From: Squalus acanthias
Taxonomy: Eukaryota
DNA: 64,000 nt
Direction of reading: 5' to 3'
NCBI GenBank assembly: GCA_030390025.1
Contig: CM059432.1
Location: 39,186,001-39,250,000 of the forward strand
Below are positions 1,353 through 56,436 of the stretch, piece after piece. Each line of letters starts with the position of its first letter. Positions within the stretch are counted from its first letter, which is position 1. The notes under the pieces were generated by a model. That model ran no database searches, had not been told where the DNA came from, and worked only from the letters and a program-made list of their open reading frames with translations. Made by a program: the position numbers and the translations under genes.

Positions 1353-2174
1353 GGGCAGAATTTTCATTGACCCGTGGAGGCGGGTTTGGAGGCATGTGGG
1401 GTGGGAAAATAGCAGATTCGGGGGTCCCAAACCCATCCCGCCCCCAACCCGCCTCCATGCCAGTTTCACAGGAGGCGGGTACCTGACCTGTGCTGGGACC
1501 CGCCTCCCCGAGGCGGGAAGGGGATTAGTGCCAATAAACTGCCTGTTAACAGGTAGTTAACAGGCAGTTTTTTGCCTAATCCCTATTTTTGGCCCTGAAG
1601 TGTGGGCTTCCCGACAGGTCCGAACCACGCCGATTTAGCGAGGCGGACCGTCGGTCTGGAGGGGTCGAGATGTCCGGTGTGCAGGTGAGTGATGGGTGCA
1701 TGAGTGCAGAGGTAAGTGTGTTTGGTGTGTGTAAAGTGTTTTAAGAACTTGTACTTACCTTAACTTTGTCCTGCAGGCTAAGGTGTCGGGAGTCCCTCAC
1801 ATCCATGGCACAGAAAGCAGAATGGTCGCGGAGCTGTCAAAAGCTACAGTCTCTGCTTTCTGTGCTGGATTGATTTCTAACTCAGTCTAAGTACAGGGAC
1901 TCACGTTAGAAATCATATTGTCAGGGTTTGACAGCTTCACAGAGTTGTCAAACGCTGAAATTTCATCTGTCAAAAGCTCTTGACAGATGAAATTTCAATG
2001 ACGTCACCTGTAGCCAAGGGACCCTTGATTGGCCTGCTAAGCCTGCTAGGCGGGCTTAACAAGGTCAATCAAGGGAAAATACAGTGGGTTGGCCACAAGT
2101 CGATGGAGGCGGGACTACAACCCAAAAAGTGGGAGTCCCGCCTCCATCACGTCCCAATTGACAAAATCCAGCCC
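1353..2174 (+). mobile_element. Non-autonomous PIF/Harbinger element (MITE-like, family M)
   Basis: Ends GGGCAGAATTTT...AAAATCCAGCCC (imperfect TIR); 3-bp flanks AAG/ATG; colinear with the reverse copy at 34129-34969 and related to 41283-42121. Confidence 0.85.
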
Positions 2175-3924
2175 ATGAAGTCAGAAAATTACCCTTATAT
2201 ACCTTAGTGACTTAACAGAAACAAGTATTTGAGAGAATGACAGAAGCAAATGGAAAGGCTGATTGAGTAGTGCAGTGGTATAGCGCAGGTTTTTCAATTC
2301 AGGGGGGTTGGTATTAGTCCTCATTCCACCTGTTTTATGGGCATAAAACAGGCGCATTGAGGTCTAATGTCAGGGACCACCATCCTGTGCACAAAGGACC
2401 GCAAAAAGACTTCTGACCTGATGTTGGGCTGGCCTATTTTTCAGGCGTCCCTGGCAGCCACCTAAAACTGGTGTTAGGCCCCTTACATAAGCAATGAGGG
2501 GCCCAATGCCTGTTTTCGGCCCCCTTGCCAAAATTAGAGTGCGATTGCGGGAACAGGAACCAGGCCTGCTCCACTGAGGATTCTTCAGTGACCAAAGCAG
2601 CGGCTGTCAACAAAAGAAATCCCGTCTGTTACGTACAGCGGTACCAACATCTGCAGAGAGCAGGCGCAGGTAATAATACGGGTTGTAGGTGGCCCCACAA
2701 TGAAAGTATCAAGTGTTAATTGATCCCATTGGGCCTGCTGCAAATAGTAACCAAAGATAAATCCAGATCAATGTAAAACAATATACATCGTGGGATTAGG
2801 AAGCTTGCTAAACTAATCTAGCAATTGATCAATTCAAATTGCTGTGACTCAAGACACTTTTGCGTCTTTTGAATATGTCAATATTTATACAAATGTGTGT
2901 CCAATCTAATTGCAAATCCCAATTTATAAAAGCTTCAGAGGAGAAGAAGAGTTACAGATTGTCAAAGTTCAAAGCACTTTTATTCTGAGGGGGCGATTCT
3001 CATCTCACTACCACCCCATTTACACCTAAAAATGGAACGGTAAAGAGATGAAAGTCATGTGTGAAAGTGAGATACTCGGCTCCTTAGCTCAAGTTTCTTC
3101 AGCAGTGTGAATTACTGGTCATTATTCAATTAATTTTCAAATAGTATTGAAACCATACATAAATTATTTTTTTTAGAAATTTGTAAACCACCATTCATTT
3201 TTCAATTATCCTTTGCCAGTTTCCTTTCAATTTAGAGTGGTTCCTTCTTCGCAAGAAATGCAAATAGTAAAATTTTATTTCAGAAAATTATTTACCAAAC
3301 AGACAAGCTGGTCCTTAATTGTCTGTACAGTAAATTAGTTGTGCAATTATGATTAACAGTTAAGTGCTAAACCTGTTTCTTTACAATTTTTACAAGCTCC
3401 AGCTTTCACTTAAGTACACAGGCAGGTATATAACAAAGTCTGCCAAGTTGAAAGTGATAAAAGACACAAAATGCAAAACAAACACAGGCAGAGACTCTCC
3501 TGTTTTATGAATGCTATTACATCTGCTTCTCCCAGAGACCTGATTTTCTTCATTTCCTTATATGTTAGCATTTTATACTTGTAACTGTAAACTGCAACAC
3601 TGTAAGAATGCTCCATAAGTAGCAACACTGAAACTCTGGTCTCTCAAGCTCGAGTTCAAACTCTAATCTTGATTTACATTTATACATCCTTACATTTGAG
3701 GAGGTGATTTTTACAGTTAAAGGAAATAAACTTTTGATTGGAGGAAGAGAAACCGCTCAAGCTCCTCTCCCTTTTAATAACAGGCCAATCATCAAGCAAT
3801 ATTGATAAATTCATAGAGATATTCACAGGCTGCACTGGCAGAGGTGAAAACCCGAAAGGATGCTAACAGGGCCAAGACTAAGGATGAATAGAAAATAGTA
3901 AATATGGTCAATGATTACATCCTC

Positions 3925-4370
3925 CCAGTATTCAGTAGGGAAGACATTTGTGAAATACCCTCCAGAATTGGGTATAATCGATGTCTTGCCATGAGGACTG
4001 AGTTATGAGGAAAGACTGGAAAACTTGGATTATTCAGCTTTAAGCTTTAACAACTATGATAGACCTTATAAAAATATATCAGATATTAAATGGTATAGAT
4101 AATGTCAATCCAGAACTTTACTTCAATTTGAACTATGAGAGTAGGACAAGGGGTACAGGTTCAGGAGATTGGTATCAGGAAGTCCTTCTTCACACAAAAA
4201 GTGATCAACACATGGGATGGACTTCTGGATAGGGTAGTGGAGGCAAAAACATTGGAATCGTGTATGTAAATGTTTGATTCTGTGATGAAGTAGGAGTGAC
4301 TGTTAATTCTTTCTGAACGGAGGAACTGGAATGGGTTGAATTGTCTTCCTCATCTGTATATAATTTTTTA
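3925..4370 (+). mobile_element. Degenerate CR1 LINE 3' fragment
   Basis: Translates to GLSYEERLEKLGLFS-like ORF2 C-terminus, followed by a CR1-like 3' end; heavily mutated. Confidence 0.6.
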
Positions 4371-7215: not shown

Positions 7216-8856
7216 GTTTCTGCTTGTCACAGGATCCATAAGTGAACAAGCAAATGCCACAAAATTATCATTAATATTAACTTGGTCAAAATTTGCTGGC
7301 ACCTTCCACTCACAAAATGCCCTTAAAAATGTCATTGTTATGAATGCTTTTGCTTATAAATGCACCTTTATTATAATCACAATTGCATTACTTTTAGTTT
7401 TAAAATAGCATCGTAGTTCAAAAGATCCTCCATTTATATAACATAAGAACATAAGAAATAAGAGCAGGAGTAGGCCATACGGCCCGTTGCGCCTGCTCCG
7501 CCATTCAATAAGATCATGGCTGATCATCGACCTCAACTCCACTTTCCTGCCCAATCTCCATATCCCTTGATTCCCCTAAAGTCCAAAAATCTATCTATCT
7601 CAGCCTTGAATATACTCAAAGACTCAGCAGTCACAGCCCTCTGGGGCAGAGAATTCCAAAGATTCACAACCCTCTGAGTGAAGAAATTCCTCCTCATCTC
7701 ATTCTTAAATGGCCTACCTCTTATCCTGAGACTATGCCCCCTAGTTCTAGACACTCTAGCCAGGGGAAACAACCTCTCAGCATCTACCCTGTCAATCCCC
7801 TTTAGAATCTTGTATGTTTCAATGAGATCACCTCTCATTCTTCTAAACTCCAGAGAGTATAGGCCCATTCTACACAATCTCTCATCATAGGACTGCCCTC
7901 TCATCCCAGGAATCAATCTAGTGAACCTTCGTTGCACCGCCTCTAAGGTAAGTATATCCTTCCTTAGATAAGGAGACCAAAACTGTGCACGGTACTCCAG
8001 GTGTGGTCTCACCAAGGCCCTGTACAATTGTAGCAAGACTTCCTTACTCTTATACTCCAACCCCCTTGCAATAAAGACCAACATGCCATTTGCCTTCCTT
8101 ATTGCTTGCTGTACCTGCATGCTAGCTTTCTGTGTTTCTTGCACGAGGACACCCAAATCTCTCTGAACACCAACATTTGAAAGTTTCTCACCATTTAAAA
8201 AATATTCTGTTTTTTTATTCTTCCTACCAAAGTGAATAACCTCACATTTCCCTACATTATACTCCATCTGCCACCTTACTGCCCACTCACTTAGTCTATC
8301 TATATCCCTTTGCAGACTCTTTGGGCAGAATTTTCATTGACCCGTGGAGGTGGGTTTGGAGGCGTGTGGGGGGTTAAAATTGCGAAAAACTGGCGGGTGG
8401 GCACAAGCCTGCCTCCATCCCGCTGCCACGCAATTTTCATTAAATCGTGTCTGCTGGTCCCGACTCTGTCCCGCCTCCAAGAGGCGGGATAGGCCGTTAA
8501 GGCCCTTAACAAACAGTAAATTGCCTCTATAATGCCATTTTGAAAGGCCTTTGTGATTTTAACCCTTTTTCCACGTGAAGCACGCCTGTTCTGAACCACG
8601 AATGTGAAACCTGGCGGTAGCACATTTGGATTGCTGACTATCAGCTGCAGCTCAACCATTATGAAATAGGAGATGTGATCAGCCATCATTTGCAGTTGGC
8701 AGGACTTTGTTGTCTGAGGTCTGGGGGATCTTTTATATGGCATAACCACAGCTGTGGAAGTTTGGAGCCTGACACCCATCTCCAGTGTGACCTCCTGGGA
8801 AACCCCTCTTGCCACCTTGATTGAGCGCTTCCTCAACTGAGGCATATACGAGAAGC

Positions 8857-9078
8857 ATGGGAACCATTTATTTCCTTTCCTCCTGGACATCAGATTCGGA
8901 CGAAGACCAGCTGTGGCAGCAGCAGAACCATGAACAACAGCACCACCAGCAGCAGCAGCATCAACAGGAGTGCCAAGCTGCTCCTCACCCACCTGAAGCT
9001 GCACAGGCCAGAAGGCGCCAGCACGCGACCACATTGCTGCCCGAGATGCAAGGGACGCACTTGACCAGATTTGCTTAG
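8857..9078 (+). pseudogene. Harbinger transposase with the DDE core deleted
   Basis: [16 protein letters not shown]...[11 protein letters not shown] is nearly identical to the N-terminus in ORF 51818-53164, then jumps to HIAARDARDAL/TRFA* (C-terminus). Confidence 0.85.
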
Positions 9079-9394
9079 TCTGCACAATCAAACACTTTTG
9101 CCTCGCACCTTCTTATCAGACCATCGACAATGGCCAGGAACCTGTGGATTCCTATCACTCTGACAACCATACTGACAATTGCAAGTCATCCTAAGCCCTC
9201 AATGTGGAAGTCCCATTTGCGAAATGACAGATGCCACAACTTCAGCAGTTTGCCAGCAGAATTTTTAATCACACCAAGCAAGTGCTGGCATTTCAAGATT
9301 AAACACAACATTACACCCAAGTGACTACCCTTGTGACTACTTGTGCATTATTTTTCTTTTACGCGTGCTCCTACGTGGTGCTTCCCCTGTGGCT

Positions 9395-11289
9395 TCAGCA
9401 GATGTGGAGGCCCCCTTGCTCACTTTCTTGCTGCTCCTGCCTCGACACCTTTGGCAGGCATCCTCTGGGGTTGCGAGCCTGTGAGGGCTCGGCAACAGTC
9501 TGCTGCTCCTGCGGCTGTGCAGGGGTTGAAACGCCCATCTCAGTTGGGTGAGGACTCTGGTGGGGCTCTGACCGAGGGCTTTGCAGTGGCTTGGTCGTGT
9601 GAGCGCTTGGAGAGGAGCCCCCACTTCCTTGTTGTCTGCCACCAACATCCCTCTCATGGGTCAGCCCCACCTCAGCTCTTGCAAGTGGATTGAGAGCACC
9701 ATGCTGCACATCAGGGGGGCCATGGGGACCCGTATCTGCACTGGAAGTCCTACTCAGAAGGACTTCCATGAAGGTCTGGTTTCTATGTTCAATAGATAAC
9801 CATCGCTCCTCAAGAGATGCCAGTCTATTCTGAACAATGACCATGTTTTCTACACTCTGGTGACTTATCTCCTCCATAGCCATAGCCATCCTCTCCTCTA
9901 CTCTAGCCATCCTTTCCACAGAGGTTGCCATCCTTTCCGTGGTGATGTGTTCATGTGCCAATGACTCCATAAAGGCTCTGCTCATGTTCGCTATGGACTC
10001 CTCCATTCGCTCCACACTCGGAGTGACCCTGGAGACAAAACCTGCCAGAGACTCCTGCATCTGTTCCTGGAGTTCTAGCACCGCTGATCTTATGGATGGA
10101 CCCAGAGGCAGAGGGTCGACATGCAGCTGAGCCGAGCTAGGAGAGTCCTACGCCCTCCGACTAGGACTCTCCACTGCTGTCCCTGTCTCCACTATCTGCT
10201 GATGCTCACTTGTGAGCTGTGATACACCAGGTGACAACACTACTCTATCTCGCGGTGTGAGTGTCTGCGCTGGTGCTGGGTGCGCTGAATTCTGCTGACG
10301 CGGCGCCCTCAGAGGTTGCAGCTTCCTCTGACGAGTGGTGAGGCTCATGCTCTTCCTCCTGGACGGTGGGGACGGCTGCTTGCGATGGTCCTGGGGGGGA
10401 GTAAAGGAAAGAGTCAGAGATGTGAGTCCAAGGTTACATGCACATTGCATATTGGAGGTGATCATAAGTTAGTCTGCTGGAGCATCAGAATCATTATCAG
10501 TGACTCATGCAATGTCAATGAGAGAGATGATAAACTATTCTGTCACCAGCTTGCTCTGATGCACCCGTCTGTCCGTCCCCCACTTGCGCATCCTCCTCCA
10601 CTCCCATGATCTCCAGGACCGCCTCCTCCCAGGTGGTGAGCTGGGCTACTGAGGCTGGCCCTCCTCCTGTCCTCGCTCTTTCCCTCTTATTGTGAGCTCT
10701 CTTTTCCTGCAATGAGGGAGACAAGTGGAGTTTGAGTGAGAATGAAGGAGTGAGTGTAGAGAATCTATATCATTGATGCTTAGAAGGATACAAATTCGGA
10801 GTGAGGTGGCAAGACCATGGGCCCTCCCTGTGTGTTGTAAGTTGTTTTCATAGCATCACAGCAATACGGAGTGTGAGGGCTGCATAGTTGAATAGTTAGG
10901 TGAATGTGACCATACAGAGAGAGGGAATGGGTAAGGGTGTAGTGATGTCAGTGTCAAGTGGGATGTGGAGGAAGAGGTTGTCAAAGCTGAGTGCTGGTGA
11001 GGAGAGGCAATGGGGATCAGAATGAGGGTGATGGGAAATTCATACTCACTTTTCCAGTGCGCAGCAGGTCATGAAACCTCTTCCTGCACTGAAGTCAGGT
11101 TCTGCGGGTTATGGACAACGAGGTGACCTCCTCTGCCACCTGGATCCACACAGCCTTGGTTTGATGGGAAGGCTTCTTCCTCCCTGAAGAAGGGAAGAGC
11201 ACCTCCTTATTAGCTCTGGCTCCCTCAATTAAAGCTTGCAGGGCGACGTCATCAAATCGAGGTGCAGACCTAGGTCTCTGGCTGGCCAT
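9395..11289 (-). pseudogene. Harbinger Myb/SANT-like (trihelix) DNA-binding gene, 3 exons (11289-11050, 10706-10547, 10390-ca.9395)
   Basis: MASQRPRSAPRFDDVALQALIEG...W..VA...RT*LQCRKRFHDL motif; GT-AG introns; exon 2 EKRAHNKRERARTGGG; coiled-coil-like tail; stop at 11095 plus later frameshift/stop. Confidence 0.85.
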
Positions 11290-12299
11290 TCTTCCTGCAG
11301 GTGCCTCTAACATGCAAAGGCAGAAGCTTGGCAGTCTGCAGAGGAAGCAAGGCTTGTTGCAGACCTTAAATGCTGCAGCAAAGATGACGTCATCGGAAGC
11401 GACTTTCAGACTGGAAAAACTCACTGGCCATGGGTTCCCACACGTTGGCACTCAATTGGCCAATTATGTTAAAATCGCATCAATCTCCCACATCGATTTA
11501 GATTCGGGTGGCTAACACAAAATGCGGATTACACAACCCCAGCCCGCCCCTGATTCAAAATCCAGTCCTTTGTGTTCTCCTCACAGCTTACTGTCCCACC
11601 TGCCTTTGTATCATCAGCAAACTTGGATACATTACACTCTGTCCCTTCATCGAGGTCATCAATATAGATTGTAAATAGTGGAGGCCCCAACATTGATCCT
11701 TGCGGCACCCCACTAGTTACAGCTTGCCAACCTGAAAAAGATTCATTTATCCCTACTCTCTGTTTTCTGTCCATTAATCAATCCTCTATCCATGCTACTA
11801 TATTACCCCCAACCCCATGAGCCCTAATCTTGTGTAATAACCTTTTATGTGGCACCTTATCGAATGCCTTTTGGAAATCCAAATATACTACATCCACTGG
11901 TTCCCCTTTATTTACCCTGCTAGTTACATCCTCAAAAAACTCTAATAAATTTGTCAAATACGATTTCCCTTTCATAAAACCATGTTGACTCTGCCTAATC
12001 ATGTTATGCTTTTCTAAGTGCCCTGATACCACTTCCTTAACAATGGATTTCAGCATTTTCCCGACAACTGATGTCAGGCTAACCGACCTGTAGATCCCTG
12101 TTTTCTCTCTCTCTCTCCTTTCTTGAATAGCGGTGTTACATTTGCAACCTTCCAATCCGCTGCGACCATTCTAGAATCTAGGGAATTTTGGAAGATCAAA
12201 ACCAATGCATCCACTATCTCTTCAGCCACCTCTTTTAGAACCCGAGGATGTAGGCCGTCAGGTCCAGGGGATTTGTCGGCTTTTACATTTTACAACCAA

Positions 12300-29843: not shown

Positions 29844-30840
<997 letters not shown>

Positions 30841-43210: not shown

Positions 43211-44617
43211 TGTAAAGGAATAGCCATATTTAGAAAAATACACCACCCTATGAATAGAATTCTGACTTTATTAAAACATGACAGACTGGGTTTAAAAATC
43301 TAAAAGCCTCAACAACACAAAGCTGTAAACACCATACAGGATTTTGAGATAAAGATCAGTTGTTGACACTGAAACAAAAGCTTCATTGAAACAGAGGGTT
43401 GGAGGTTCCTAGAAGTCTGAAGTTTTGGAAAGAGCACAATGGAATCCCCAGTTAAGGTGTCATAAACCAACACTTTGAAATGAATCACATAAATTAAAGA
43501 AACATATGCCTTCATAAATATGACATCAAATGAAAGACAGGAGACATAATTCTTGGCACAACCAATTGAAGTAGCTAGGAAAACAATCACGTACTCGGTT
43601 GAAGTGTTTATAATTTACATGTTGTAAAAAGATACAAACAGAAGACTTTCATAAATATGACATCAATAGATGCACCAAGCAATCACATTGTTTATGTGTT
43701 AAACTTGGAGCAAATAGGAGACACGAAGTCTGTTTAAAACCAGCTGAGGTGATTTAAGAATTGAATAGAAGACCTTCGTAAGAATGGCATCAAATAGATA
43801 CATCTGTTATAACCGTTTTTATGATAAGTTTTGAACACCTAAAGTAGAGACACAAGTCTGCAAGCTAACAACTGAACTGACAGTAAGAATAGAAAGAAGT
43901 CAACAGAAATATAACTAGAGATAATTAGCTTACATCAGCAGCACACTTCAAGGGATATGCCACTGAAAATAGGGTTTAAATATAGGACTTTCAAATAGGA
44001 AGACAGAATTCGCTGGAAGGGGCAAGCGATTCTCAGCTTCAGAGACAGGCTCTGAAAGCCTACAACTCTTTGAGTCTCGGGTAATCAAAGGTATTTTGAT
44101 TTTGGTGGATATCCTGGATTAAGAATAAGTAGAAATGTAAAAATGTAACGAAGTTAAGATTTGAGAATAAGGATCTCTGAGAATAAGAATTGTAAGCTAT
44201 TTGTTTTTAGAACTGTTAAAGTTGCGATTGAATCACCAACTGTTAACTGCAAGTCGGTTCTTCAATAAATCTATATATTTTTAGAATTATCTCACATAAT
44301 ACTTCTGTATCAAACTCGCGAACTCAATCTCTGTACACTCTTTGGTGAGGAGTTGCAGAATTCATGGGGAATTTTCCGGACCCTCATAATATCCAGAAGG
44401 TTACAGTCTAGTTAAACTTATTAAAAGTGCTATCTGGAGGACGGTAACATCTTCAAGTCATTCCTTTCTTTTAGGGAGAGATAGTCTGGACCTTTAGACC
44501 CAATTAAGCATCTTGTAGGATTCGGCTATCTCTAACTTTAGTTGAAGGTGAATGTCTGGGGAATACGCCTGACCCGGGGTGGCCCGAAAAGGGCTAGGAC
44601 TAGTAATTATCCCTTCA
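43211..44617 (+). mobile_element. Solo LTR, 1407 bp
   Basis: TG...CA termini; TSD GATG; TATA-like site near 43975; AATAAA at 44264. Confidence 0.88.
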
Positions 44618-45421
44618 GATGTTGGAAATGCAATATATATTTTAAGAATGGAATAATTTCTCAGCCAGGTGACCAACGTCCAGAAATGGAGGCATTGAGT
44701 GGATATGTACTGTAGATGAAATTGCTGGTAACTCAGGTGAAAGTTATTGGATTGGTAGAAGACCAGTATGACCAAAATATTAGGGATAATTTTCTAATGT
44801 TGCACTCCCAGTGGGAGTTAATATTGGAACTTTGGGCTAGTTTTTCACTTTCAGTGGTGGCAGCAAACTGGGGTTAGCGATCAATGGAATGGAAACCATG
44901 GCAGAGTTTGGACAAGTTGAAGTTTGTGGAGGATGGAAGACAACAGGAGAGAATTAGAGTAATCAATTCTGAAGGTGAGAAAGTCCCATCATTTCAGGTA
45001 GAATGTCCCAGAACTAGCAAGGCGTGTAGGGAGTCATTAGAATGTCTCCCAGCCCAATTTTACACTCCTGTCTGCTGGAGTAACATCAGGGAGCTGGTGT
45101 AACTTCAGCATAAAATTCCAGGCTCAAGTGATTTGCAGCTCTAGTTTGTTACCAATTGAACCTAATAATAAAAGCCACAGTTTAAATGATTCCTTCTGTG
45201 GGGGAGAGGAAATGAAATCTTGACTTCAGTCCTGTTGCATCAGAGTTACTGTAGTTATTTGAAACTATGCCATATAATTGCACACGTATCTAGCAGAGGC
45301 AACCCATTCATGAGGATAAGGTGATCAGTCATTTGATAAGGTCCTGGCTGTGTGGTAGAAGATCAACAACTGAGAACATGTGCTGCTGTAACAGTGATCT
45401 GAAGAGGAATATAAAGATAAT

Positions 45422-45580
45422 GTGGATGAAATTGGTCTTCGCTCATTGCGCAAAACGGGCAATAGCGAAACAGCAGCTCACTTTACATCCAATGGAAAAG
45501 AAAAGCAGGTAGGGTGTAAAACGGGGTGCCGATTGGTTATTTCCCATTTTGTCCTATTGCTGAAGACCAATTTCATCACC
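45422..45580. mobile_element. Short MITE
   Basis: Perfect 16-bp inverted repeat GATGAAATTGGTCTTC at 45425-45440 and 45562-45577. Confidence 0.65.
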
Positions 45581-46016
45581 AGTGATGGATACAGTGATCT
45601 TGTACAAAGGAATAGGGACTCACATTCAACTTTGGCGGGGCGGAAAACTGATGGTAACGGATTGGCTGCCTGTTATACACCCCCGATTTTCCTTTCCATT
45701 GAAGATTACCCTCATAGTTTCTCTTCAATTTTATTTAATACATTTTATTTCCAAACAAACAACAAAAACAGCTGAAATAGGTGGACATTTTAATTCACTC
45801 TGAGGGGGTAAGCACTGTGGAGCTGGATTTCCTTGCCATTTACGCCGCACATACCATACTGGAAAAGCAATGGCAACCTTTTTGTGAGAAAAGTCAGATG
45901 AAAGCCATTTTCACCAACTCCCACGTTTAAACGGCATCCCCTGAGTTTCCTCCTATTTCTGCAGCTCTCCCACGGTCCACCTGTGGAGTCACCACTGGCC
46001 GCATTTGAATATGTCA

Positions 46017-47410
46017 TGAAGGGATAATTACTAGTCCTAGCCTTTTTCGGGCCACCCCGGATCAGGCGTATTCCCCAAACGTTCACCTTCAACTAAAGTT
46101 AGAGATAGCCGAATCCTAGAAGATGCTTAATTGGGTCTAAAGGTTCAGACTATCTCTCCCTAAAGGAAAGGAATGACTTGAAGATGTTATCGTCCTCCAG
46201 ATAGCACTTTTAATAAGTTTAACTAGACTGTAACCTTCCGGATATTATGAGGGTCTGGAAAACTCCCCCAGAATTCTGCAACTCCTCACCAAAGAGTGTA
46301 CAGAGATTGAGTTCGCGAGTACTATGTGAGACCATTTAAAAAATATATAGATTTATTAAAGAACCGACATGTAGTTAACAGTTGGTGATTCAGTCGCAAC
46401 ATTAACAGTTCTAAAAACAAATAGCTTACAATTCTTATTCTCAGAGATCCTTATTCACAAATCTTAACTTTGTTACATTTTTACATTTCTACTTATTCTT
46501 AATCCAGGATATCCACCAAAATCAAATACCTTTGATTACCTGAGACTCAAAGAGTTATAGGCTTTCAGAGCCTGTCTCTGAAGCTGAGAATCGCTTGCCC
46601 CTTCCAGCGAATTCTGTCTTCCTATTTGAAAGTCCTATATTTTATACCCTTTTTTCAGTGGTATATCCTTTGAAGTGTGCTGCTGATGTAAGCTAATTAT
46701 CGCTAGTTATATTTCTGTTGACTTCTTTCTATTCTTACTGTCAGTTCAGCTGTTAGCTTGCAGACTTGTGTCTCTACCTTTAGGTGTTCAAAACTTATCA
46801 TAAAAAGCGGTTATAACAGATGTATCTATTTGATGCCATTCTTACGAAGGTCTTCTAGTCAATTCTTAAATCACCTCAGCTGGTTGTATTACAGACTTCG
46901 TGTCTCCTACGTGTTCCAAGTTCAACACAAACACAATGTGATTGCTTGGTGCATCTATTGATGTCATATTTATGAAGTCTTCTGTTTGTATCTTTTACAG
47001 CATGTAAATTAAAATCACTTCAACCAGATGCACCATTGTCCCCCTAGCCACCTCAGTTGGTTGTACCACATAATCGTGACTCCTGTTTCATTTGATATCA
47101 TATTTACGAAGGCATATGTTTCTTTAATTTATGTGTTTCATTTCAAAGTGATGGTTCAAAACAATTTAACTGGGTATTCTTATTGTGTTCTTCCGAAAGC
47201 TCAGACTTTCTGGAAGCTCCAATCTGCTGCTTCAGTGGGGCTATTGTTTTAGTGTCAACAACTGATTCTTATCTCAAAAGCCTGTATGGTGTTTACAACT
47301 TTGTGTCGTTGAGGCTTTTAGATTTTTAAACCCAGTCTGTCATGTTTTAATAAAGTCAGAATTCTGTTCATAGGATGGTGTATCTTTCTGAATATGGCTA
47401 TTCCTTTACA
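46017..47410 (-). mobile_element. Solo LTR, 1394 bp, same family as 43211-44617
   Basis: TG...CA termini; TSD GTCA; on minus, TATAAAA at 46640-46646 and AATAAA at 46352-46357. Confidence 0.88.
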
Positions 47411-51817: not shown

Positions 51818-53164
51818 TTATAAAAGTTTGGTGTAACTTCCTTGCTTTTGTACTCTATGGGCTCGATTTTGCCAGGCCCGAGGAGGCGGGATTGGAGGCG
51901 TGTGAGGTGTTAAAATCGCAAAAACTGGCGGGCAGGCCCGATCCCACCTCCATCCCACCGCCGAGCAATTTTCCCACATGCGAGTTTTCTGACCCCGTCT
52001 CCATCCCGCCTCCAAGATGTGATGAGCCACTTGTTCCTCCGGCATCTGCAAGCCACGATGCTGTGACATGTTGTGAAGTGCACAGCAAACCACGATGATT
52101 CTGGAGACCCTGGCTGCTGAGTACTGCAGGGCTCCACCTGATCTATCCAGGCATCTGAACCGCATCTTCAGCAAGCTGATGGTTTGCTCGATTATGGATC
52201 TGGTGGAAATGTGGCTCGAGTTGTAGCGCTCCTCAGCTTCGTTGGATGGGCTCCTCAATGGCGTCATTAGCCACATCTTCAGGGGATAGCCCTTGTCTCC
52301 AAGTAGCCATCCGTTAAGTTGGTCTGGCGGACTGAAGAGCGGAGGCACACTAGACTGGCGCAGGATGAAGGAGTCATGGCAACTGCCAGGGTACTTGGCA
52401 CAAACATGCAAAATTTCCTTCTTGTGGTCACACACCAGCTGTACGTTGAGGGAGTGGAAGCCCTTGCGGTTGACAAAAATACCTGGATTGTGATGGGGTA
52501 CCTTAAGGGCCACATGTGTGCAGTCAACGATGCCCTGCACCCTTGGAAAGCCTGCCAGATTGTCAAACCCAACCGCACACACAGTTACACTGGCTTGATC
52601 CTTGGAGAAATGGATGTGATTGTGCACGATGGCAAAGAGGGCATCGGTTACCTGCGTGATGCAAGTGTGTGCGGCCGCCTGGGAGATGCCGCTGATGTCT
52701 GCTGCTGATCCCTGGAATGAGCCTGAAGCAAAAATGTTGAGTGCGGTGGTGACTTTGATGGCCACTGGTAAGGGGTGTCCACCTGCTCCTCTGGGCTCCA
52801 GGTCTTGCTGCAGCATTGCGCAGATGTCACCCACTACCTCTCGCGAAAGTCTGAGCCTCCTTTGGCACTGCTGCTCAGTCATGTTGAGGTAGCTGATCCT
52901 TTGTCTGTAGACCCTGTTTGGGGGGTATCTGCTGCGCCGACGGGCTTCCATGCGCTGGCGCCTTCTAGCCTGTGCAGCTTCAGGTGGGTGAGCAGCAGCT
53001 TGGCGCTCCTGTTGTTGCTCCTGCAGTTGGTGCTGCTGTTGCTCATGGTTCTGCTGCTGCCGCGGCTGTTCTTCGTCCGAATCTGATGTCCAGGAGGAAA
53101 GGAAATAAATGGTTCCCATTCTTCTGGTATATACCTCAGCAGACTTTGGCCTGCTGCTGGACAT
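51818..53164 (-). CDS. Harbinger (HARBI1-like, DDE_Tnp_4) transposase ORF; native ATG probably at 53119; native C-terminus lost
   Basis: Uninterrupted 448 codons with [60 protein letters not shown] and CCALHN; reads through the left arm into CR1. Confidence 0.9.
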
Positions 53165-53443
53165 ATTGGCTGGAGGAATCTATCACAGCAAAGGGCATAA
53201 GGTTTGCAGTCTGCAGAAGAAGCAAGGCTGCTTGCAGGCCTTAAATCCAGCAGCATTGATGACGTCATCAGAGGCGACTTTCAGGATGGAAAGACTAATT
53301 GGGCCAGGGGTTCCACACGCTGGAAATCAATTGCCCAATTAGGGGAAAATCGCATATTTTTCCCACATCAAATTGGAGTCGGGTGGCTAACACAAAAAGC
53401 GGCTGACACGCCCCCAGCCCGCCCCAATGGCAAAATCGAGCCC
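51859..53443 (-). mobile_element. Compact PIF/Harbinger element B (1585 bp)
   Basis: Perfect 16-bp TIR GGGCTCGATTTTGCCA; TSD TAT. Confidence 0.95.
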
Positions 53444-54654
53444 TATGCCTCTGTTTACAAAGCCAAGGATCCCGTATGCTTAACAGCCTTCTCAACTTGT
53501 CCTTCCACCTTCTATTATTTGTGTGTGTGCACCCCCAGGTCTCTCTTTAAAAAGGCTTTAAAATTGTACCATTTAGTTTATATTGCCTCTCCTTATTATT
53601 CCGACCAAAATGCATCACCTCACACTACTCTGTGTTAAATTGTATCAGCCATGTGTCTACCCATTTTACCAGTCTGTCTATGTCCTCCTGAAGTCTGTTA
53701 CTATCCTCCTCACTGTTTACTAGATTTCTGCAAACTTTGAAATTTTGCCCTGTATACCCAAATCCAGGTCATTAATATATATCGAAAAGAAGCAGGAAGA
53801 TTCATGCAGAGGCTTAAAAAACAATTCATACAATCCAAGTCAAAGGAAATTATGGTAGAAAGAAGTGTGTTAATTGATGAGAAACTGTCATGCCACTCCA
53901 CTCATGAACGGAGGTGAAGTACCAACTACAGTCCTTTTCAGTCAGAACTGAGAATCACTATGTCACATATGAGTAGAACAAAACAGTGTGATCTCATTCA
54001 GAAGAAAGATAAATTCAAAGAAAAAATTATGGAATATACTCATAAGAGATGGAATGTTCAAAAAGTCTGAGATCAAGGAAGGGAACAATGCATTGGACAA
54101 GGCTGTAAGGAAAGAAAATTGTTCTTTCTATGCACACCAGAAATGTATACTGTAACATACAAGGGGTCCGCTGTGACTGCATAAAGAGATGACCATAGAG
54201 TCACAATAAAGTTTACCATTAGAAGAAAATTAAGCCTAGTGTGATTTTCTTTTTTGTCAGCTGGGCAACTGACACGCAAGGAAACACAGTACCATGTGCA
54301 AAAAACTCCAAACCAAGATACTTAGAGATCTTCACAGCTTCTATTTGCAGGATATAGAAGCCGATTCTCTCCCAGTAGGGAACCTGCTTACTCTAATGAG
54401 GATAGATATTAGTTGGTCTTTAGATGGTTCCACCTATTGGAGGTACGGAGATTCAGCAGTAACTGTGTCCCTGTAATGCAGCCATGATAGTACTGAACTC
54501 TGGTAATTCCTTCCATGAGCTGTCTTGCCAAGCTTCAGTTTCCTCCTCAGGGTACATGATGGGCATTTGCCTTTAGCATGGAGGAAGGACCTACAGTGAA
54601 TAGCTCGCAATTTACTAGACATCTAATTTGAGTGTCGCATACCAGTCTTACTCT

Positions 54655-55579: not shown

Positions 55580-56385
55580 ACAGATCATAGAATCATAGAA
55601 TGGTTACAGCATGGAAGGAGGCCATTCGGCCCGTCGAGCCCGTGCTGGCTCTCTGCAAGAGCAATTCAGCTAGTTCCACTCCCCCGCCCTTTCCCCGTAG
55701 CCCTGCAAATATTTTTCCTTCAGGTACTTATCCAACTCCCTTTTGAAAGATAAAATTGAATCTGCCTCCACCACCCTTTCAGGCAGTGCATTCCAGATCC
55801 TAACCACTCGCTGAATAAAAACGTTTTTCCTCATGTCGTCTTTGGTTCTTTTGCCAATCACCTTAAATCTGTGTCCTCTGGTTCTCGACCCTTCTGCCAA
55901 TGGGAACAGTTTCTCTCTATCTACTCTGTCCAGACCCCTCATGATTTTGAATACCTCTATCAAATCTCCTCTCAATCTTCTATGCTCTAAGGAGAACAAC
56001 ACCAGCTTCTCCAGTCTATCCATGTAACTGAAGTCCCTCATCCCTGGAATCATTCTCGTAAATCTTTTCTGCACCCTCTCTAAGGCCTTCACATCCTTTC
56101 TAAAGTGCGGTGCCCAGAATTGGACACAATACACCAGTTGAGGCTGAACCAGTGTTTTATACAGGTTCATCATAATTTCCATGCTTTTGTGCCCTATACC
56201 TCTATTTATGAAGCCCAGTTTCCCGTATGCTTTTTTAACTGCTTTCTCAACCTGCCCTGCCATCTTCAACGATTTGTGCACATATACCCCTAGGTCGCTC
56301 TGTTCATGCACCCACTCTAGGATTGTACCCTTTAGTTTATATTTCTTCTCCTCATTCTTTCTACCAAAATGTATCACTTCACACT
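55580..56385 (-). mobile_element. CR1 3' fragment
   Basis: ORF 55670-56377 is the CR1 ORF2 C-terminus; (TTCTATGA)n tail. Confidence 0.93.
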
Positions 56386-56436
56386 ATTCATGTAAGGTTG
56401 TTATGTCAAAATTAAGTCTTTTTCTCCTGTAAGGTA

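What the first reader, a model, noticed from the sequence alone, without database searches (positions are those of the whole stretch)
51859..53443. One-gene Harbinger: transposase fused in frame to the Myb gene start and placed behind the Myb-side arm
Seen: the right arm of B (53205-53443) is colinear with the right arms of element A (11330-11568) and of 29844-30840, where it leads into the Myb ATG (MASQRPRSAPRF, MSSSPKSAPR). In B the same arm leads into MSSSRPKSA. It then switches at CTGAGG to the transposase 5' leader (EVYTRR, compare 8836-8856) and continues in frame into MGTIYF and a complete DDE core. In A the transposase instead runs from the left arm. The 16-bp TIRs are perfect and the ORF has no stops, but the last ca. 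15 native residues are replaced by arm sequence. Inference: inversion plus deletion, or deletion in a tandem-gene parent, made a transposase-only element with a swapped promoter. It would need Myb protein in trans.
Basis: partly seen in the sequence, partly recalled or inferred. Interest (0 to 1): 0.72.

Follow-up and report, generated by a model that had tools for sequence, protein, structure and literature searches.

The report
One-off inverted, decaying Harbinger copy
This is a single damaged copy of a common shark-type jumping gene in which the cutting-enzyme gene was flipped and trimmed, likely by a copying error during DNA repair, so that it now follows the start of the partner gene in frame; it is found once in the genome, shows no sign of selection, and is most likely an ordinary fossil.

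Summary
The anatomy is real. B (51859-53443, 16-bp TIRs, TSD TAT) is three pieces of a 4.3-kb two-gene Harbinger whose genes converge: left 159 bp, the transposase segment inverted (1123 bp), right 305 bp, each about 98% identical to the parent consensus. The Myb start MSSSRPKSA is joined in frame to the transposase, giving a 448-codon ORF with the DDE triad. Corrections: 46 native C-terminal residues are lost (not ~15), including a conserved helix; a 65-residue tail runs through the TIR into flanking LINE; element A is not full-length but transposase-deleted. A tandem-gene parent is rejected (19/19 relatives convergent). Both junctions occur once in the 3.7-Gb assembly; B is the only inversion among 84 same-end copies. 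Its 8 synonymous/16 non-synonymous changes match decaying siblings, and 9/29 siblings also keep an open core. Most likely a one-off template-switch repair product (left break inside the element's only 10-bp hairpin), now decaying. Transposase-only Harbingers and internal inversions are already in print. Transcription could not be tested. The scan noted the Myb-only sister family earlier; no look-alike of B was listed.

The parts
51856..51858 (.). left target-site duplication TAT, inside a CR1-like LINE fragment
   Evidence: flanks colinear with the LINE copy near 55818-56389 (D4/D7/D15)
51859..51874 (+). left TIR, 16 bp, perfect match to the right TIR
51859..52017 (+). left arm = parent consensus 1-159, 4 differences; normally leads into the transposase promoter, here cut short
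52003..52017 (+). remnant of the parent's only perfect hairpin with a stem of 10 bp or more (consensus 145-167); the left breakpoint (159) lies inside it
52017..53139 (-). inverted transposase segment = parent 509-1631, 23 differences in 1123 bp; DDE_Tnp_4 with D214, D290, E326 retained
51818..52015 (-). non-native 65-residue C-terminal tail and stop: left arm read antisense, through the TIR, into the LINE flank; replaces 46 native residues
53117..53119 (-). ATG of MGTIYF, the likely conserved transposase start
   Evidence: 15 of the first 40 homologues begin MG
53138..53164 (-). first 9 codons of the Myb gene (MSSSRPKSA), joined in frame at 53139 with a 1-base overlap
51818..53164 (-). 448-aa chimeric ORF
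53139..53443 (+). right arm = parent 4012-4317, 3 differences; carries the region upstream of the Myb ATG (presumed Myb promoter; TGACGTCA and CCAAT-like motifs by eye)
   Evidence: promoter role is inferred
53428..53443 (-). right TIR
53444..53446 (.). right target-site duplication TAT

Best explanation
B is a single-copy, internally inverted and doubly deleted derivative of a 4.3-kb two-gene Harbinger, likely made in one template-switching repair event and likely decaying neutrally since. Shown: three pieces of one young subfamily (parent 1-159, 1631 to 509 inverted, 4012-4317), intact TIRs and TSD, unique junctions. Inferred: after excision or a break at this locus, repair synthesis from the left end stalled in the hairpin at 145-167, jumped to the opposite strand of the template at 1631, copied the transposase backwards to 509 and was joined to the 305 bases rebuilt from the right end. 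The in-frame join to the Myb start is a one-in-three accident. The element could still be moved in trans because both ends are intact, but it did not amplify; any protein would lack the conserved C-terminal helix and would need the Myb partner from another copy.
For: Three-piece map at 97.5, 98.0 and 98.7% to the consensus of 16 full-length copies. Junction patterns with up to 2 mismatches: 1 match each in 3.7 Gb; DNA search across the right junction: only B spans it among 40 scored of 2263 candidates; B is the only one of 84 copies with this right end that has an inverted piece over 100 bp at 95% or more, and I saw no internal inversion in 40 further transposase-bearing copies. Neutral drift: 8 synonymous vs 16 non-synonymous codons, against 243/463 plus 28 stops in 29 siblings, Fisher p = 1.0; 15 of 30 differences are CpG transitions; 9 of 29 siblings also have an open core. 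B changes conserved positions: F141I (F in 100 of 120 homologues), G327S four residues after the catalytic E (G in 93 of 120), A364S (85 of 120). Lost tail holds an R..LI...F motif (R 66, L 54, I 52, F 62 of 120 rows, about 40 gapped) that AlphaFold models as a helix at pLDDT 92-97 in an intact sibling. All three pieces are equally diverged (p = 0.40) and the transposase and right arm are closest to the same subfamily. The hairpin covers 0.5% of the element and another copy, L105, has an independent deletion starting at the same base. Two of three antisense frames of the left arm are stop-free, so read-through is expected.
Against: Junction overlaps are only 1 base each, which 44% of random joins reach, so microhomology gives no support for template switching. 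The hairpin coincidence was noticed after the fact. The ORF is still open and the D-D-E triad is intact; pN/pS is 0.59 and 24 changes give little power (binomial p = 0.23). The AlphaFold model of B still shows a C-terminal helix at pLDDT 85-95, though the alignment laid the homologues' motif on B's unrelated tail, where L and F are R and G. The left arm does not tell B's subfamily from the Myb-only subfamily (medians 95.1 vs 94.5%). A poly(A)-like hexamer lies downstream at about 51593, so a transcript is possible.
Confidence: 0.8

Rival explanations
1. Same fossil status, different origin: one copy inserted head-to-tail reversed into another and two later deletions left the outer arms and the inner transposase, or inversion and deletions happened in separate steps.
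For: A reversed self-insertion exists in this family (L094/L095, 1 of 30 left-end loci). No microhomology points to template switching. The left arm cannot be assigned to a subfamily.
Against: Needs three events; the transposase and right arm both come from the same minority subfamily (96-97% vs 80-95% to the others) and all pieces are equally diverged; no trace of inner TIRs remains.
Confidence: 0.1
2. B is a working promoter-swapped, transposase-only helper or inhibitor: the Myb promoter drives a DDE protein that is completed by Myb protein from the thousands of Myb-only copies.
For: ORF open, triad intact, Myb upstream region kept whole; 2224 Myb-only junction matches in the genome; split DDE/Myb families are described (PMC13668399, PMC8437027, passages).
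Against: Single copy; no selection signal; conserved C-terminal helix lost and conserved residues changed; at least 7 siblings keep a complete MGTIYF-to-stop ORF, so B is not needed as a source.
Confidence: 0.05
3. The rearrangement is an assembly chimera.
For: The junctions are seen only in this assembly; no independent reads of this organism could be laid.
Against: B has its own spread of 30 substitutions over all three pieces with a CpG bias, a matched TSD and colinear LINE flanks; no other copy is closer than 96.8% in the transposase, so it is not a mis-join of two other loci.
Confidence: 0.03
4. Deletion in a parent with tandem (Myb then transposase) genes.
For: A predicted shark protein joins a Myb domain to a DDE domain (P0034), so tandem layouts may exist in other families.
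Against: The 98%-identical parent is convergent in 19 of 19 and 29 of 29 copies; none of 84 plus 40 copies is tandem.
Confidence: 0.02

Closest known systems
Solo-ORF variants of Harbinger-Snek in sea kraits (PMC8437027, passages read)
   Same: TIR-bounded vertebrate Harbinger derivatives that encode only the transposase (2263 intact in L. colubrina) or only the DNA-binding protein; thought non-autonomous.
   Different: Those are multi-copy and ascribed to large deletions; B is single-copy, inverted, fused to the Myb start and C-terminally truncated.
DDE-only and MADF-only derivatives of Harbinger-1M_cIno, Caenorhabditis inopinata (PMC13668399, passages read)
   Same: Same asymmetry: Myb/MADF-only copies expand, DDE-only copies stay few (5 loci, 1 intact).
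   Different: There the DDE-only locus is intact, expressed and the only transposase source; here complete two-gene siblings remain, and B is damaged with no expression data.
MtPH-A6-4 internal inversions, Medicago truncatula PIF/Harbinger (PMC2213677, passages read)
   Same: Non-autonomous PIF/Harbinger derivatives with inverted interiors, in families that follow the abortive gap repair model.
   Different: Those inversions are tied to 60-bp tandem repeats; B has no repeat at its joins and the inversion makes an in-frame gene fusion.
Single-copy Pack-TIRs made by gap filling with template switching (PMC8277862, passages read)
   Same: TIR arms around a filler, mostly single-copy, microhomology short (median 2 bp) or absent.
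   Different: Pack-TIR filler is host DNA; B's filler is its own transposase, reversed.

Membership tests
PIF/Harbinger superfamily (derivative) | short terminal inverted repeats | tested here: met
   16-bp perfect TIRs
PIF/Harbinger superfamily (derivative) | 3-bp target-site duplication | tested here: met
   TAT/TAT; siblings have 3-bp A/T-rich duplications
PIF/Harbinger superfamily (derivative) | DDE_Tnp_4 transposase with D-D(35)E triad | tested here: met
   PF13359 E 4e-37; D214, D290, E326 match columns conserved in 93, 104, 88 of 120 homologues
Autonomous two-gene Harbinger | second gene encoding a Myb/SANT protein | tested here: not met
   B keeps 9 of about 502 Myb codons; the parent has the 3-exon gene; the matching exon of A hits PF13873 at E 0.0015, below the curated cut-off
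Autonomous two-gene Harbinger | complete transposase | tested here: not met
   46 C-terminal residues with a conserved motif lost
Transposase-only (solo-ORF) Harbinger subfamily | only the transposase gene between intact ends | tested here: met
Transposase-only (solo-ORF) Harbinger subfamily | amplified as a unit (several copies, different flanks) | tested here: not met
   1 match for each junction; 1 of 84
Transposase-only (solo-ORF) Harbinger subfamily | transposase expressed and active in trans | not testable with these tools
   no run on record as RNA held the stretch; needs RNA of a carrier and a transposition assay
Domesticated Harbinger transposase (HARBI1-like) | purifying selection on the ORF | tested here: not met
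   8 syn/16 non-syn, same as decaying siblings, p = 1.0; low power
Domesticated Harbinger transposase (HARBI1-like) | orthologue kept across species, ends lost | tested here: inconclusive
   TIRs and TSD are intact; no related genome is held and short contigs of other organisms cannot show absence

The most novel reading that the evidence does not exclude
B is a natural promoter swap: the Myb-side arm drives a transposase lacking its C-terminal helix, which either mobilises the family in trans with Myb protein from the thousands of Myb-only copies or binds that Myb protein and damps the family as a dominant-negative.
Probability: 0.05. Interest if true: 0.55.

Novelty: new member of a known kind. 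Interest (0 to 1): 0.15.

Why it matters
As it stands it matters little: it is one rearranged fossil among thousands of family copies, though a clean record of how a repair event can flip a gene inside a transposon and put it behind the other gene's start. If B proved to be expressed and active or inhibitory, it would show that the two promoters of a Harbinger are interchangeable and would give a natural test of what the conserved C-terminal helix does.

Tried and rejected
Sequencing runs: no holder is on record as RNA and the best holder has 0.74 of the words. Contigs of four DNA-type runs on the whole element and of two DNA-type and two guessed-RNA runs on the right junction stop at 53139 or continue into the native sequence on either side; no listed contig bridges the junction, but the tables are cut, the runs appear to be other organisms, and contigs show presence only, so this is no evidence on existence or expression. 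Solved structures: no relative by sequence or Foldseek at E 0.001, so the role of the C-terminal helix is not read from a structure. Microhomology at the joins: 1 base each, not beyond chance. Alternative (reversed-end) transposition, a lead from e1-9081716: rejected because none of B's four breakpoints (159, 509, 1631, 4012) is at a TIR tip. L220 also starts near base 158 but appears to be a deletion between repeated arm motifs, so I did not count it. A closest parent copy: none found; B's non-CpG changes are mostly private. Literature: six searches listed no report of a Harbinger transposase inverted into frame with the Myb start; the library lacks most subscription journals, and supplements of the papers read were not opened, so solo-ORF variants in PMC8437027 might include inverted ones. 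Selection on Myb in the Myb-only sister family: shared variants looked constrained but on a tree the signal sits on stems and mixed branches (omega about 0.34-0.4), not inside Myb-only clades (about 0.7-0.8) (99 of 114 rows kept).

Full report
What is in the sequence. B spans 51859-53443, has perfect 16-bp TIRs and a TAT duplication, and sits in a CR1-like LINE fragment whose two halves are colinear with another copy in the window. The minus strand has a 448-codon ORF, 53164-51818, with a whole DDE_Tnp_4 domain. The closest named proteins of an intact sibling are HARBI1-like transposases of sharks and rays.

The parent. Searches of the window's genome gave many relatives at 96-99% to either side of the right junction, but only B spans it (40 of 2263 candidates scored). 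I fetched 19 relatives; in all 19 the transposase is opposite to its orientation in B relative to the arms. A consensus of 16 of them (three left out: one cut by a contig end, one with a diverged right arm, one with a large insertion) is 4317 bp, with the transposase running from the left arm and a three-exon Myb gene of about 502 codons running from the right arm. B maps as parent 1-159 forward, 1631 to 509 reversed, 4012-4317 forward, at 97.5, 98.0 and 98.7%. So 160-508 (transposase promoter region) and 1632-4011 (transposase end, poly(A)-like signal, nearly all of Myb) are gone. In 29 of 29 further transposase loci the left arm and transposase are colinear with the consensus. A tandem-gene parent is therefore rejected, and MSSSRPKSA is the Myb start.

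The chimeric ORF. B has 9 Myb codons, 374 transposase codons and a 65-residue tail that reads the left arm backwards, crosses the TIR and stops in the LINE; 46 native residues are lost. Two of three antisense frames of that arm are stop-free, and an in-frame join has a one-in-three chance, so the long ORF needs no special cause. The lost tail carries an R..LI...F motif: R, L, I and F are the commonest residues in those columns (66, 54, 52, 62 of 120 rows, about 40 rows gapped), and a direct scan found it in 41 of 88 homologues that have the preceding LHN motif. AlphaFold models it as a helix at pLDDT 92-97 in the intact sibling L033. Against my reading, the model of B also ends in a confident helix, but the alignment placed the homologues' motif columns on B's tail, where L and F are replaced by R and G, so this model does not test the loss. 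No solved structure is related; that the helix is needed is inference.

Copy number. Patterns across the right (24 bases) and left (28 bases) junctions, two mismatches allowed, match once each in 3.7 Gb. Of all 84 loci with the exact 24-base right end, 55 are transposase-deleted Myb-only copies, 18 carry transposase and Myb-side sequence, 10 are truncated or unclear within 6 kb, and one, B, has an inverted piece. In 40 more transposase-bearing copies of two other subfamilies I saw no internal inversion. B did not amplify in this assembly.

Selection. B differs from the consensus at 30 of 1588 aligned bases, 15 at CpG sites, evenly over the three pieces (p = 0.40), like its siblings (mean 26 per 1120 bases vs 23). 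Codon changes are 8 synonymous and 16 non-synonymous (pN/pS 0.59), indistinguishable from 29 siblings (243/463 plus 28 stops; p = 1.0) and from neutrality (p = 0.23), with low power. Nine of 29 siblings also have an open core and at least seven a complete ORF from MGTIYF. The triad D214, D290, E326 is intact, but F141I, G327S and A364S (consensus numbering) hit columns conserved in 100, 93 and 85 of 120 homologues.

Mechanism. Shown: one inversion with a deletion at each end, pieces of equal age, ends and TSD intact. Inferred: repair synthesis with two template switches at this locus. The left break lies in the only perfect hairpin with a stem of 10 bp or more in the element (145-167, 0.5% of its length), and L105 has an independent deletion starting at the same base; this was noticed after the fact. 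The joins overlap by one base each, as 44% of random joins do, so there is no microhomology support. A nested reversed insertion followed by two deletions remains possible, since such nesting occurs (L094/L095), but it needs three events and two copies of a minority subfamily.

Expression. Not tested: no run on record as RNA held the stretch. The region upstream of the Myb ATG is kept whole and a poly(A)-like hexamer lies at about 51593, so a transcript is possible.

Comparison with what is known. Transposase-only Harbingers are described in sea kraits (PMC8437027, passages) and C. inopinata (PMC13668399, passages); inverted derivatives under the abortive gap repair model in Medicago (PMC2213677, passages); single-copy gap-filling products of TIR elements in animals (PMC8277862, passages). 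A survey of fish Harbingers found none in elephant shark and asked for other cartilaginous fish to be examined (PMC9179366, passages). Six searches listed no in-frame Myb-start fusion by inversion; no supplements were read. B works like a non-autonomous derivative and is a member of PIF/Harbinger by ends, TSD and domain, but it is not an autonomous element, not an amplified solo-ORF subfamily and shows no sign of domestication.

Context. Element A belongs to the Myb-only subfamily: its junction pattern matches 2224 places against 270 for the undeleted site. The scan has noted that subfamily many times; a look-up with B's own sequence listed nothing.

Verdict. Real, correctly seen in outline, but most likely a single decaying rearrangement. 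Interest 0.15; new member of a known kind.

Noticed in passing
window 8324-11568 (element A); genome-wide: A is one of at least 2224 copies sharing a transposase deletion (consensus about 697-1701, 8-bp microhomology) while keeping the Myb gene; 18 of 30 left-end and 55 of 84 right-end loci are of this type. On a Myb tree these copies are polyphyletic among transposase-bearing subfamilies, and constraint sits on stems, not within Myb-only clades. Already noted by other reports of this scan.
   Followed up: partly
L254 206-2670, L256 188-2670, L204: Simple Myb-deleting derivatives that keep most of the transposase: two copies share consensus 1-1487 joined to 3292, one has 1-1685 joined to 3293; all cut the transposase short.
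   Followed up: no
L094/L095 (G000 C1 22112759-22115900): One family copy lies reversed inside another at about consensus 423.
   Followed up: no
window 51850-51858 and 53444-53452; L073, L009, L016, L080: Independent insertions at the same position of CR1-like LINE copies, L073 in the opposite orientation; pooled flanks of 60 ends show a preferred target (A at -7 in 53 of 60, C at -4 in 45 of 60, A/T-rich 3-bp core).
   Followed up: partly
P0034: A predicted 523-aa shark protein joins a Myb_DNA-bind_5 domain to DDE_Tnp_4; may be a gene-model join of two tandem genes or a real fusion.
   Followed up: no
window 29844-30840: Short derivative with both arms and the Myb start followed by a (CT)n/GA-rich microsatellite instead of any gene.
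   Followed up: partly
window 43211-47410: Long inverted arms, 89-96% complementary over about 1 kb in several pieces, around a 1.4-kb centre (I4, I6, I7, I14, I18); perhaps a foldback-like element.
   Followed up: no
parent consensus 493-495; loci L032, L036, L043, L045, L049: The upstream in-frame ATG of the transposase is polymorphic (ATG 24, CTG 5 of 29); contigs of other organisms mostly show the CTG form.
   Followed up: partly
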